Source: Elsinoe ampelina (lineage: Eukaryota). Taken from it: a stretch of DNA of 64,000 nt. This document shows, in pieces, positions 60,533 to 63,427 of the stretch. Within the stretch, counting starts at the first letter, position 1; each line of letters starts with the position of its first letter. The position numbers were made by a program, and so were the translations under genes. The DNA is taken from assembly GCA_010093995.1 (NCBI GenBank), contig ML992515.1, positions 115,533 to 179,532 of the forward strand, given 5' to 3'. Below the pieces are notes generated by a model, which worked only from the letters and a program-made list of their open reading frames with translations, ran no database searches and was not told the origin of the DNA.

Positions 60533-63427
60533 TCACTTCGGTATTTGGTTGGGGCCCTTGCCAGCCGCCATCGAAATTGACAGCGTGGTTCTCGGAAGTA
60601 CCGATGCACTGACTGATGCCGAGGACAGATCGGCTGGCGGTGAGAAAGCAGGTGAAATGACACGGCTAACCTGCTCCGGTGGTGTCGCCTCCCAATGGGA
60701 AAGTTGCTGCGATTGCTGGTGCAGTATCTTGACCGCCGCCTGTGACGGGCTGTGACTCCCAGATCCTGCCTGCTGAGACGAAGAGGAATCTGCCGGCATT
60801 TGATCCCAGTGGGACCCTTGAGGCAGGGTTGAGGCAAGCCAAGGAAGGGGTTTAGTCCACCACGACCTCTGCGTGTGTTCGCTATCATTCGTTGTACGAT
60901 CCTTCCAGAGCAAAGGCTGGTGTGTATTTTCGTCAGCTGGTTGCGGTGAAGGGGCCCAATACTGCTGTTGCATTTGTCGAAGTGGTGCTTCAGGTATGAT
61001 GCGATGGAGCGCCACAGCATCCAGTGCTACGGTCTTCTCGAAGTCTTGGTCTTCGTCAGTGCTGATGCTCGATCCGATGTCCGGATTGGTCACCATGCCG
61101 CTCTTGCGAGCATGTATTTGTGCTGCTTGGAAGTACTTTTGGCATTCGACAAGTTTACCCTGGTCGGCGAGAACGAAACCCAGCTCGTTCAGGATGAAGT
61201 GCATAGCCCTTGGATACAGACCACGCATTCCATGTGCGGTCATCAACGCCTCTTGTAGAACCGTCTCAGCTTCCTCGTATCTGGCTTGCTTGCGGTACAC
61301 CAGGCCGATGTAAGCTTCAACCATGATGGTTTTGAAATTACGCTTGCCGTATGTTTCCAAAAATTCCTCATGTTCCCGCTTGTAGATCCTCTCAGCATCG
61401 TCAAGGTAGCCTTGAGCTCTGTATAGCTTGCCTAGATTGTGTAGTGTTCCGATTGTGCGAGGATCCTTTGGCCCAAGCGTCTCCTGTTTGACTTGCAGCA
61501 CTTTCGTGAAGATCTCTTCAGCCTGCTTGAAGTCCCCATCCATCTGCAATAGATTCGCCAAATTGTTCAGAGCGCCCAAAGTGTAGAGGTGCTTCTTGCC
61601 GTACTCCTCCCGATAAGTGTCCACGGTGTGTTGGAGCAGAGCTCGAGCCAAGTCGACCCTACCAGACTCAGCATAGGCCCAACCAAGGGCTTGCAAGGTG
61701 TGCAATGTGCTCCGGTTGTGTTGTCCGAACCTGTCCTCGAACCGCCTGCGAAGTGCCTCGAGGATTCCAGCCGCTCGGGCTGGTTGGTCCTGTTCGATCA
61801 ACACTGTCGCTAGACTTCTGAAAGCATTCAGCGCTCGCTTGTCCTCCTGCTCGTTCACCGCGAATGACTTGATTGCTTGCTCATACATCACTGCCGCTTC
61901 AGCGAAGTGACTGTTCCTCTGCTGCAGCTGACCAAGCTTGAACATTATGCGAGGATCGATCCCAGTGCCCATACCTTGAGCAACGTCCCAGATACGATTT
62001 GCATGTGGTATGATGCGCCGATCACGTATCCAGAAGTACGACGCAGTCTCATGGCAAATTTGGTCCGATACAAGTTGCAGTGCTACCCGTGTGGATAAGG
62101 GACCGAGGTCTCGCACGAGGATTGCCTTGATCCATGCGTGCACACAAGAATGTACGCTGTAGCCTTTCGACGCTCCAGCGAGTGGCTCTGTGCTTGAGGT
62201 CTCAGCAAGACCACGCTCGCATAGTATGTGCATGACCTGATTGAAAGTGAGCTTGTCTTTAGTAGCAAGCCCCAGCCACGGGAGGTCGTTCGGTGCAGCT
62301 GGCTTCAGTAGCTCGTACCAGATATCGTCGTTCTCGAGTAGCCCCCAAAAGGCCAGAATATCTACACAGGCTGGATTCTCCGATCGTAGCTGCTGGAGTG
62401 TAATGTCGCAAGTGCCGCCTACAGTCTTCTCTTCGGTAGTCAGGAGGTCGCTAGTCACCGCATCCAGCCTTTCCCACGAGCTCCGGTAGAATTGCCGGTA
62501 CTCAGCAAACGTGACAGCCTCTTGCGTCAAGTAGGTTCCTGCTGTAGCCAGAGCCAGGGGTAGACCATCTAGATCCTCCACCAGAAGCCTCGCATCTGCG
62601 TCATACATCACCTCCCGGTCCCGCCCGGACGCATGCATCAACAGCTCCAACCCTTCTCTTGCGTCTGCCAACCTCCCGAGATCTATCCGTGAATGTCCAA
62701 GAAGAGTCTTACTCCTCGTCGTAACCAGAATCTTCCCCTGCACACCCCCAGGAAGCAGCGCCCCAAGATCCACCCCATCTTTACCACCCGCCTTCACTCG
62801 ATCCAAATTATCAACAATCATCAACCACCCCTCATTTCCCTTCCTACTCAACCAACCTTTCACACCTTCCACCGCATCCACCTCCGGGCCCAGCTGCAAG
62901 TCCCGATATACCCTCGCCACCCGCGACCGAATCACAGCATAGCTTCTCGCGACCGCCGCATCGTCTCTTGCATCTACCCATAGTACAGCAGAGTACTCTT
63001 CATGATAGCGTCGCGCATACTCGCTCGCCAACTGAGTCTTACCTATTCCCCCCAGCCCACGGACGACGACCTGCACCCGACCAGGCTTTTGAAACGCATC
63101 GTGGATGCGAGCGAGCTCGTTCCCGCGGCCGACGAAGCGGGAACGGGGGAAGGCATGGGGAAGCTCGAAAGGGAGCTCGAAGCTGGTGGGGGTTTGAGAT
63201 GCGAGGTACGCTGCATTGGCGTCGCCATACGAGGCATAGCTGGTTGGCGGGGCGCCGTAGAAGCTGGAGATCAGCCGTGGTCATTGGCGTGTAGATCAGA
63301 CGTACTTGTTGACAAAGTTCAAGGGGCCATTGTTGGTCTGATTGGTGGCGAGATTGGAGATGTGGCCGTGGTTATCAGTGCGGTGCGTGGTCCCGGCGGG
63401 CGGCGGTGGTGGAGTGGAGGAGGCCAT
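60533..63427 (-). CDS. Fungal NLR: short N-terminal motif + NB-ARC + TPR repeats (950 aa, 2 exons)
   Basis: Exon 1 is 63427-63306, followed by a GT..AG intron at 63305-63264. Exon 2 has FVGRGNEL, Walker A GLGGIGKT, Walker B WLMIVDNLD, ILVTTR and GLPLALATAG, then kinesin-light-chain-like TPRs (LGALNNLANL, TIGTLHNLGKLY). Confidence 0.9.

What the first reader, a model, noticed from the sequence alone, without database searches (positions are those of the whole stretch)
63255..63427. Hidden NLR first exon encodes a candidate amyloid signalling motif
Seen: the ORF track starts the NLR at 63076. An upstream ATG (63427) and a 42-nt intron extend it to MASSTPPPPPAGTTHRTDNHGHISNLATNQTNNGPLNFVNNFYG-linker-FVGR. 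There is no enzymatic or HeLo-type N-terminal domain, only a ~30-aa N/T/H/G-rich stretch with alternating hydrophobics ending in GPLNF. Known: fungal NLRs such as NWD2 and PNT1-like proteins use short N-terminal amyloid motifs (HRAM, PP, sigma) to template the fold onto a separate cell-death effector (HET-S, HELLP, SesB). Inference: this is a PP/RHIM-like or new amyloid motif. No effector with a matching C-terminal motif is visible in the window, so it would lie beyond 64000 or be unlinked.
Basis: partly seen in the sequence, partly recalled or inferred. Interest (0 to 1): 0.8.

Follow-up and report, generated by a model that had tools for sequence, protein, structure and literature searches.

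The report
Short conserved tail on fungal NLR
A receptor-like (NLR) gene of a grapevine-pathogenic fungus really starts with a small spliced first exon that encodes a short, conserved, asparagine-rich tail; the tail could be an amyloid signalling motif, but it fits no known motif family and no partner protein was found.

Summary
On the minus strand, ATG 63427, exon 1 (63427-63306), a 42-nt GTACGT...CTGAT...CAG intron (63305-63264) and exon 2 (63263-60533) give a 950-aa protein. Contigs of 3 of 4 runs laid skip exactly those 42 bases. The exon is not hidden: the public model P0002 (Elsinoe ampelina, named by its source) is identical.

The protein has a 65-aa disordered tail, then NB-ARC, TPR and a disordered C-tail. 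The tail core ATxQTNNGPxxFVNNxxG is kept in all three Elsinoe orthologues, at least as well as the NB-ARC domain.

The PP/RHIM reading fails: there is no NxGxQxGxN or GxQxG. The HRAM and PUASM patterns and the Pfam sigma model are not met either. No other protein in about 1.8 and 5.8 billion sequences carries the motif, and the window holds no effector domain. These searches cannot see partners at the 32-48% identity typical of real pairs (PMC7885112).

Best reading: a lineage-specific candidate amyloid signalling motif, confidence 0.35. Rivals are a non-amyloid linear motif or an effector-less NLR paired with a tandem paralogue. Interest is modest.

The parts
63428..63527 (-). 5' leader of the NLR transcript. 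Contigs end at 63527 (X1), 63525 (X2) and 63482 (X3). It holds a 17-nt tandem repeat (63475-63508), each copy carrying an ATG-TAA mini-uORF (ATG at 63497 and 63480), and an out-of-frame ATG at 63446 that opens a 23-codon uORF overlapping the main start.
63306..63427 (-). Exon 1: ATG 63427 plus 40 codons and 2 nt. It encodes MASSTPPPPPAGTTHRTDNHGHISNLATNQTNNGPLNFVN(N).
   Evidence: identical to P0002 residues 1-41
63264..63305 (-). 42-nt intron: GTACGT 5' site, CTGAT branch-like site, CAG 3' site. It is in phase but holds in-frame stops, so retention would end the protein after ...LNFVNKYV.
   Evidence: skipped exactly in contigs of X1, X2 and X3
63254..63391 (-). Coding for the conserved N-terminal motif, residues 13-44 (THRTDNHGHISNLATNQTNNGPLNFVNNFYG), interrupted by the intron. 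The core, residues 26-44 (63254-63352), is kept in all three orthologues as ATxQTNNGPxxFVNNxxG.
60533..63263 (-). Exon 2, including the stop codon at 60533-60535.
62483..63091 (-). NB-ARC nucleotide-binding domain (P0002 residues 99-301), with Walker A GLGGIGKT and the GLPLAL motif.
   Evidence: PF00931, E 4.9e-8; folded in the AF2 model
61091..61945 (-). TPR sensor region, about residues 481-765.
   Evidence: TPR_12 E 5.8e-42, TPR_10 E 5.8e-26; helical repeats with high pLDDT
60536..61090 (-). Low-complexity C-terminal tail (residues 766-950), rich in S, Q and P, predicted disordered.
   Evidence: pLDDT below 50 for 766-950; for the wider segment 731-950, 154/220 identical to E. batatas and 48/220 to E. 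fawcettii

Best explanation
The gene encodes an NB-ARC/TPR NOD-like receptor. Its only N-terminal module is a 65-residue, natively disordered tail. Inside the tail sits a short Asn/Gly/aromatic motif, core ATxQTNNGPxxFVNNxxG, found only in Elsinoe. The most likely single reading is that this is a lineage-specific amyloid signalling motif of a new sequence family.

Proposed mechanism: ligand binding to the TPR domain drives NB-ARC oligomerisation. That brings several tails together, and they fold cooperatively into a cross-beta (strand-arc-strand) nucleus. The nucleus templates the same fold on a related motif in a separate cell-death effector encoded elsewhere.

Shown here: the exon and its splicing; the architecture; the disorder of the tail; the conservation and composition of the motif.

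Inferred only: the beta-arch fold, amyloid formation, templating, and the existence of a partner.
For: - Architecture. A short tail, then NB-ARC, then TPR, with no effector domain. This matches PNT1 and FNT1, NB-ARC/TPR NLRs whose first ~31 residues are prion-forming (PMC7885112, passages of the introduction and sections 6 and 9).
- Disorder. Residues 1-65 have pLDDT below 50, while 66-765 are well folded. [quoted passage not shown]
- Selection. The core (residues 26-44) is 18/19 identical to E. batatas and 13/19 to E. fawcettii. For comparison: NB-ARC 200/230 and 125/230; linker 18/23 and 6/23; whole protein 791/950 and 415/950.
- Composition. 8 Asn and 3 Gly in 26 residues (tail probability about 1e-6). 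On my reading of the sequence, LNFVNNFY alternates aromatic or aliphatic residues with Asn, and NNGP could be an arc.
- Base rate. 17% of all short fungal NLR N-termini, and 36% of clustered ones, carry amyloid-like motifs. Several classes have no known partner (PMC9815663, section 19 and Table 1).
- A relative. P0045, an NB-ARC/TPR relative at about 29% identity, has a G/N/Q-rich N-terminus with a faint NACHT_sigma match (E 1.1, not significant).
Against: - No effector-side copy was found.
  - No protein of 30-521 aa shares three 5-mers with residues 12-55.
  - A profile of the three N-termini, run against 1.84 billion representatives, returned 4 proteins with E up to 0.001. These were P0002, P0004 and two repeat proteins that I judge spurious.
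  - The same profile against 5.8 billion proteins of 78-2000 aa returned only the three NLRs.
  - Among 69 window ORFs of 160 aa or more, none has a HeLo, HeLo-like, SesA/SesB, PNP_UDP or patatin domain.
  - No motif-like 25-mer occurs elsewhere in the six frames.
  - These searches would miss partners at the 32-48% identity seen within real PP clusters (PMC7885112, section 11), so this counts only weakly.
- The motif fits none of the four described fungal families.
- A conserved Pro sits in the core. From general knowledge, this is unusual inside amyloid strands.
- The motif is known from only three proteins of one genus.
- The upstream neighbour looks like another NLR, not an effector (a hint only).
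Confidence: 0.35

Rival explanations
1. The tail is a non-amyloid short linear motif in a disordered region. It would be a docking site for an adaptor or effector, or a homotypic contact used after oligomerisation, acting through ordinary stoichiometric binding and not through templated cross-beta folding.
For: The segment is short, disordered and conserved. The core holds an invariant Pro and a compact NNGP..FVNN signature. No known amyloid-motif family fits it. No matching motif occurs in any other protein, which is what a peptide-domain interaction predicts and a motif-motif interaction does not.
Against: No binding partner or precedent for this motif is known. There was no PDB match (0 sequences at E up to 10) and no Pfam match. 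The strong Asn bias and alternating aromatics are more typical of prion-like segments (my inference).
Confidence: 0.3
2. This is an effector-less NLR that works together with a tandem paralogous NLR just upstream, as a sensor or regulator in a pair. The N-terminal tail would have no signalling role of its own.
For: One X1 contig of 3445 nt starts at 63568 and runs off the window. About 1.8 kb further on it carries a 38-nt stretch, 35/38 identical, matching 62301-62338 in the same orientation. That stretch encodes the conserved FWGLLENDDIWYELLKP region of this NLR. An open-ended minus-strand ORF at 63879-63998 could be the neighbour's C-terminus. Most relatives at about 30% identity carry integrated HET, PNP_UDP or lipase-like domains that this protein lacks.
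Against: No second E. ampelina protein appears among the best 120 hits. This reading does not explain why the tail core is conserved as strongly as the NB-ARC domain.
Confidence: 0.2
3. The motif is a divergent member of the PP/RHIM family.
For: The architecture matches PNT1: N-terminal position on an NB-ARC/TPR NLR, and Asn/Gly richness (PMC7885112).
Against: The PP core NxGxQxGxN and the GxQxG segment shared with RHIM (PMC9815663 section 6; PMC5485727 section 7) are absent in 3 of 3 orthologues. There is no central Gln flanked by Gly.
Confidence: 0.03
4. The tail has no function. It would be leftover sequence from a lost N-terminal domain, or a little-translated leader peptide.
For: Three upstream ATGs precede the main start, one with A at -3 against C at -3 for the main ATG. 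The motif is confined to one genus.
Against: The core is conserved at 13/19 at a divergence where the linker keeps 6/23 and the C-tail 48/220. ATG 63427 is the only start that gives an intact P-loop.
Confidence: 0.07

Closest known systems
PNT1/HELLP (PP motif) of Podospora anserina and Chaetomium globosum
   Same: An NB-ARC + TPR NLR with a very short N-terminal prion-forming region (PNT1 residues 1-31) and no integrated effector domain. The motif is rich in Asn and Gly (PMC7885112, passages; PMC5485727, section 7).
   Different: There is no NxGxQxGxN or GxQxG core. No adjacent HeLo-like gene lies within the 64 kb read. The core holds a Pro. Nothing has been tested experimentally.
NWD2/HET-S and FNT1/HELLF (HRAM motifs)
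   Same: A single N-terminal repeat on an NLR (FNT1 is also NB-ARC/TPR). The segment is disordered until templated (PMC7885112, PMC4518210, passages).
   Different: The HRAM signature is G at position 19 with hydrophobic residues at positions 5, 8, 10, 16 and 18. At the conserved Gly registers it is met at only 1 of 5 positions. There is no Pfam HET-s match.
Sigma motif (Het-eN/SesA/SesB of Nectria haematococca; Pfam NACHT_sigma PF17106)
   Same: A composition rich in N, G and Q or T at an NLR N-terminus.
   Different: There is no NACHT_sigma match at E up to 10. Sigma is about 40 aa long and built of repeated sub-motifs (PMC5485727, section 7). Here the conserved core is 19 aa, with no repeat that I could see.
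PUASM (PNP_UDP-associated motif, PMC9815663)
   Same: A short N-terminal NLR motif bracketed by aromatic residues. It was itself found only recently, which shows that new fungal families still turn up.
   Different: The pattern FxGxGxQxxGxGxF is absent. PUASM NLRs are NACHT or NACHT-WD40, not NB-ARC/TPR (PMC9815663, section 24).
Unassigned amyloid-like N-terminal NLR motif classes without a known partner (for example NLR34, NLR19, NLR17 in PMC9815663 Table 1)
   Same: A conserved, taxon-restricted short N-terminal motif on NLRs with no neighbouring or genomic effector copy. This is the same evidential status as here.
   Different: Those classes passed a grammar filter, and part of their instances passed ArchCandy. 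I could run neither. Their logos and HMMs were not readable here, so identity with one of them cannot be excluded. The strings QTNNG, NNGP, FVNN, NNFYG and NNYFG occur in none of the readable supplement files.

Membership tests
Fungal NB-ARC/TPR NOD-like receptor (STAND NTPase) | NB-ARC domain with an intact P-loop | tested here: met
   PF00931 E 4.9e-8, above its cut-off. GLGGIGKT and GLPLAL are present. The domain is confidently folded.
Fungal NB-ARC/TPR NOD-like receptor (STAND NTPase) | C-terminal superstructure-forming repeats (TPR) | tested here: met
   TPR_12 E 5.8e-42 in 5 stretches; TPR_10 E 5.8e-26
NLR-associated amyloid signalling motif (generic class) | A short (about 20-40 aa) motif at the NLR N-terminus, upstream of the NOD, in a region unfolded in the monomer | tested here: met
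   The motif spans residues 13-44. Residues 1-65 have pLDDT below 50. No Pfam domain matches.
NLR-associated amyloid signalling motif (generic class) | A related motif at the C-terminus of an effector protein, usually encoded by an adjacent gene | tested here: inconclusive
   None was found in the window or in database searches. The DNA upstream of 64000 and the Elsinoe proteomes could not be scanned at the 32-48% identity level of real pairs (PMC7885112, section 11).
NLR-associated amyloid signalling motif (generic class) | Forms cross-beta fibrils, behaves as a prion, and seeds the effector motif | not testable with these tools
   This needs in vitro and in vivo assays. ArchCandy and the ASM grammar or deep-learning models were not available.
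PP motif (RHIM-like) | Pseudo-palindromic core NxGxQxGxN, with the GxQxG segment shared with RHIM | tested here: not met
   0 matches to either pattern in the N-termini of 3 of 3 orthologues
HRAM (HET-s-related amyloid motifs) | A 21-aa unit with invariant G at position 19 and hydrophobic residues at positions 5, 8, 10, 16 and 18 | tested here: not met
   Registers on the conserved G34 and G44 give 1 of 5 hydrophobic positions in all three proteins. A 4/5 register at G54 of P0002 falls to 2/5 in P0003, and the region is missing in P0004.
Sigma motif | Match to Pfam NACHT_sigma (PF17106) | tested here: not met
   0 families at E up to 10 for the three motif fragments. The model is in the library, because it appeared for P0045 at E 1.1.
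PUASM | Pattern FxGxGxQxxGxGxF on a NACHT-type NLR paired with a PNP_UDP effector | tested here: not met
   The pattern, and even GxGxQ, are absent. The NOD here is NB-ARC.

The most novel reading that the evidence does not exclude
The tail core ATxQTNNGPxxFVNNxxG is a new family of fungal amyloid signalling motif, the first defined in Myriangiales plant pathogens. It would be a single beta-arch with a Pro-containing arc, borne by an NB-ARC/TPR NLR. It would signal to an effector that is unlinked, or so diverged that identity-based searches miss it.
Probability: 0.3. Interest if true: 0.55.

Novelty: new variant of a known kind. Interest (0 to 1): 0.3.

Why it matters
Only four or five fungal amyloid signalling motif families have been described (PMC9815663; PMC12261475, passages). 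Most short NLR N-termini remain unexplained. If this motif is confirmed, it would add a family from a Dothideomycete crop pathogen. It would show that a Pro-containing arc is tolerated, and it would give a case where receptor and effector are not obviously clustered.

If the motif is not amyloid, it is one more lineage-restricted NLR tail, and the finding is ordinary. Two points are settled either way. The first exon is real and already annotated, and the PP/RHIM label should not be attached to it.

Tried and rejected
- Whole genome: none is held for this window, so DNA beyond 64000 and the proteome could not be scanned.
- The look-up of sequencing runs: no RNA holder listed. All six rows are guessed kinds.
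- Complex prediction with four copies of residues 12-55: no answer (score 0.02 against a mark of 0.32, controls not run). This counts neither for nor against self-association.
- ESM Atlas by features for residues 12-55: no usable hit.
- PDB profile search with A1: 0 sequences at E up to 10.
- Pfam on exon 1 (E up to 1) and on the motif fragments (E up to 10): nothing.
- Local hmmsearch of the A1 profile over all 124 proteins fetched. Only the three orthologues, exon 1 itself and the two repeat proteins scored. All other hits were about 1 bit or less. The two hits that fell at an N-terminus (P0021, P0027) turned out to be lipase-like domains.
- The two extra hits (P0122, 275 aa; P0123, 771 aa) are internally repetitive proteins matching 12-21 profile positions several times. 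I reject them as chance or low-complexity matches.
- Supplements of PMC9815663, searched for motif strings and for Elsinoe. No motif string was found. The E. australis NLR rows I read in part 350 of file 1 are all 'noasm'. E. ampelina was not seen. Files 8 and 9 and the .pdf.hmm and .fa files (logos, profiles, Fig E) could not be read, so resemblance to an unassigned class such as NLR34 stays open.
- Alternative introns. Six other frame-preserving GT..AG pairs exist, and none is seen in contigs.
- Intramolecular docking of the tail onto the TPR. The AF2 model gives pLDDT 25-40 for the tail, so there is no support. That is not evidence against.
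Full report
**What is there**

On the minus strand the sequence reads ATG (63427), then 122 nt of coding sequence. A 42-nt segment follows, starting GTACGT, carrying CTGAT 7 nt before its end, and ending CAG (63305-63264). After it comes a long open frame down to a stop at 60533.

**Is the exon used?**

I laid the contigs of four public runs on 60000-64000. 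One contig each of X1, X2 and X3, from two studies, skips exactly 63264-63305 (CT..AC on the plus strand, which is GT..AG on the gene's strand). X4 does not cover the place. No contig that covers it keeps the 42 nt.

The runs' kind is only a guess. If one were DNA, the joined frame would hold all the same.

The contigs stop at 63527, 63525 and 63482, so they extend about 55-100 nt upstream of the ATG. Six other frame-preserving GT..AG pairs exist, and none is seen.

An in-frame stop lies 8 codons above the ATG. The next in-frame Met would fall inside the NB-ARC domain. ATG 63427 is therefore the only sensible start.

The public protein P0002 is 950 aa and 100% identical, N-terminus included. 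Its source calls it a hypothetical protein of Elsinoe ampelina. The exon is real, but it is already annotated.

**Anatomy of the protein**

- Pfam finds NB-ARC (E 4.9e-8) and TPR_12/TPR_10 (E 5.8e-42 and 5.8e-26). It finds nothing in exon 1.
- I ran an AlphaFold2 model with 63 aligned sequences (A2, my pick of 63 out of the 120 listed). It folds residues 66-765 confidently. Residues 1-65 and 766-950 stay below pLDDT 50.
- The conserved F-x-L-P-F-x-L ... FVGR lead-in of the NOD module starts at about residue 68. It is shared with distant relatives.
- The N-terminal module is therefore a 65-67-residue disordered tail: a poly-Pro start, the motif at 13-44, and a Tyr/Ala/Ser-rich linker.
- A HeLo or enzymatic domain cannot fit in that length.

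**Conservation**

Only two orthologues turned up: P0003 (E. batatas, 84%) and P0004 (E. fawcettii, 49%). All further hits have about 27-35% identity, and most carry HET, PNP_UDP or lipase-like N-domains.

P0003 keeps THRTDNHGHISNLATNQTNNGPLNF(I)NNFYG. The P0004 model starts at MATYQTNNGPQHFVNNYFG.

| Region (P0002 residues) | Identical to E. batatas | Identical to E. fawcettii |
|---|---|---|
| Motif core, 26-44 | 18/19 | 13/19 |
| NB-ARC | 200/230 | 125/230 |
| TPR | 232/250 | 142/250 |
| Linker | 18/23 | 6/23 |
| C-tail | 154/220 | 48/220 |
| Whole protein | 791/950 | 415/950 |

The core is conserved at least as well as the catalytic domain, which argues for selection.

The invariant residues are A, T, Q, T, N, N, G, P, F, N, N and G. 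The segment has 8 Asn in 26 residues against 3.3% in the whole protein.

**Is it a known amyloid signalling motif?**

The literature gives explicit signatures:
- PP has the core NxGxQxGxN and shares GxQxG with RHIM (PMC9815663 section 6; PMC5485727 section 7).
- HRAM is a 21-mer with invariant G19 and hydrophobic residues at positions 5, 8, 10, 16 and 18 (PMC4518210, passages).
- PUASM is FxGxGxQxxGxGxF on NACHT NLRs (PMC9815663 section 24).
- Sigma is about 40 aa of repeated sub-motifs and has the Pfam model NACHT_sigma.

In all three orthologues the PP and PUASM patterns, and even GxQxG or GxGxQ, are absent. The HRAM registers on the conserved glycines meet 1 of 5 hydrophobic positions. Pfam gives 0 families at E up to 10 for the three fragments. 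The NACHT_sigma model is present in the library, because it appeared at E 1.1 for the Penicillium relative P0045.

If this is an amyloid motif, it is a new family.

**The partner question**

An amyloid signalling motif is defined by a related motif on an effector. I looked in five ways.

1. The window. Among 69 ORFs of 160 aa or more, Pfam finds transporters, a P5 ATPase, AA9, beta-lactamase and similar genes. It finds no HeLo, HeLo-like, SesA/SesB, PNP_UDP or patatin domain. No 25-mer in any frame resembles the core.
2. Proteins of 30-521 aa sharing three 5-mers with residues 12-55: none.
3. A profile of the three tails against 1.84 billion representatives. Four proteins had E up to 0.001: P0002, P0004 and two internally repetitive proteins that I reject.
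4. The same profile against 5.8 billion proteins of 78-2000 aa: only the three NLRs.
5. The 124 proteins held locally: nothing else.

These negatives are weak. Within real PP clusters the motifs are only 32-48% identical (PMC7885112, section 11). That is far below what a 44-column profile can pull out of billions of sequences, or what three shared 5-mers require. No fungal genome or proteome could be scanned directly.

**Upstream neighbour**

The 570 bases above the ATG hold no convincing coding start.

An X1 contig of 3445 nt begins at 63568 and leaves the window. About 1.8 kb further on it has a 35/38 match to 62301-62338 in the same orientation. That stretch encodes FWGLLENDDIWYELLKP in this NLR.

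With the open-ended minus-strand ORF at 63879-63998, this hints at a tandem paralogous NLR. It does not look like a HeLo-type effector. It is a hint from one short match.

**Mechanism and odds**

I put 0.35 on a lineage-specific amyloid signalling motif. Oligomerisation of the NOD would bring the disordered tails together. They would fold into a strand-arc-strand cross-beta nucleus and template a cognate effector. On my reading, the nucleus would use ATxQT, then NNGP, then xxFVNNxx.

- For: the architecture is identical to PNT1 and FNT1, and the tail is disordered, conserved and has the right composition. [quoted passage not shown]
- Against: no partner was found, no family fits, the core holds a conserved Pro, and only three proteins of one genus carry the motif.

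Rivals:
- A non-amyloid short linear motif: 0.30.
- An effector-less NLR acting with the tandem paralogue: 0.20.
- A functionless tail: 0.07.
- True PP/RHIM membership: 0.03.

Folding four copies of the tail gave no answer and is not used as evidence.

**Is it in print?**

- A full-text search for 'Elsinoe' with 'amyloid' returned 9 papers. By their listings, eight are mycological or taxonomic works and one is a review of fungal secondary metabolites.
- The search for amyloid signalling motifs in fungal NLRs returned 30 papers, of which 20 were listed. For PMC9815663 I read sections 6, 19, 24, 33 and 45 and searched its readable supplements. For PMC5485727 I read section 7 and some passages. 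For PMC4518210, PMC7885112, PMC12261475 and bioRxiv 10.1101/2020.01.06.895854 I read passages only.
- In the file parts I could read, the 2022 survey's table lists E. australis but not E. ampelina. The E. australis rows I read are marked 'noasm'.
- The motif strings do not occur in the readable supplements. Logos, HMMs and FASTA files could not be read.

**Verdict**

The object is a normal, already annotated NB-ARC/TPR NLR with a short, conserved tail restricted to Elsinoe. It is a reasonable but unproven candidate for a new amyloid signalling motif. Interest is modest until a partner or fibril formation is shown.

Noticed in passing
window 63428-63527 (minus strand): The 5' leader covered by the run contigs holds a 17-nt tandem repeat (63475-63491 and 63492-63508). 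Each copy carries a minimal ATG-TAA uORF (ATG at 63497 and 63480). An out-of-frame ATG at 63446, with A at -3, opens a 23-codon uORF overlapping the main start, whose own -3 base is C. This suggests translational control of the NLR.
   Followed up: partly
window 63568-64000 and beyond the window end: A 3445-nt X1 contig starts at 63568 and leaves the window. About 1.8 kb on it has a 35/38 match, in the same orientation, to the NLR segment encoding FWGLLENDDIWYELLKP. A minus-strand ORF open at the window end (63879-63998) may be the neighbour's C-terminus. The upstream neighbour is probably a tandem paralogous NLR.
   Followed up: partly
window 63264-63305: The 42-nt intron is a multiple of three but holds in-frame stops. 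Retention would give a 45-residue peptide made of the tail alone (...LNFVNKYV). No retained form was seen in the contigs, though contigs drop rare variants.
   Followed up: partly
window 60536-61090 (minus strand): The 185-residue C-terminal tail after the TPRs is rich in S, Q and P and predicted disordered. The wider segment 731-950 is fairly well kept in E. batatas (154/220) but not in E. fawcettii (48/220). Its role is unknown.
   Followed up: no
protein P0045 (Penicillium samsonianum by its source name), residues about 17-50: This NB-ARC/TPR relative (about 29% identity) has a G/N/Q-rich N-terminal stretch with a faint, non-significant NACHT_sigma match (E 1.1). It may be a sigma-like amyloid motif on a related NOD.
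   Followed up: partly
window 58962-60296 (plus strand) and 60000-63527: An MFS transporter gene converges on the NLR's 3' end. A single X1 contig covers 60000-63527 and runs on past 60000, so the 3' ends of the two convergent transcripts may overlap. A contig across two genes does not show a single transcript.
   Followed up: no
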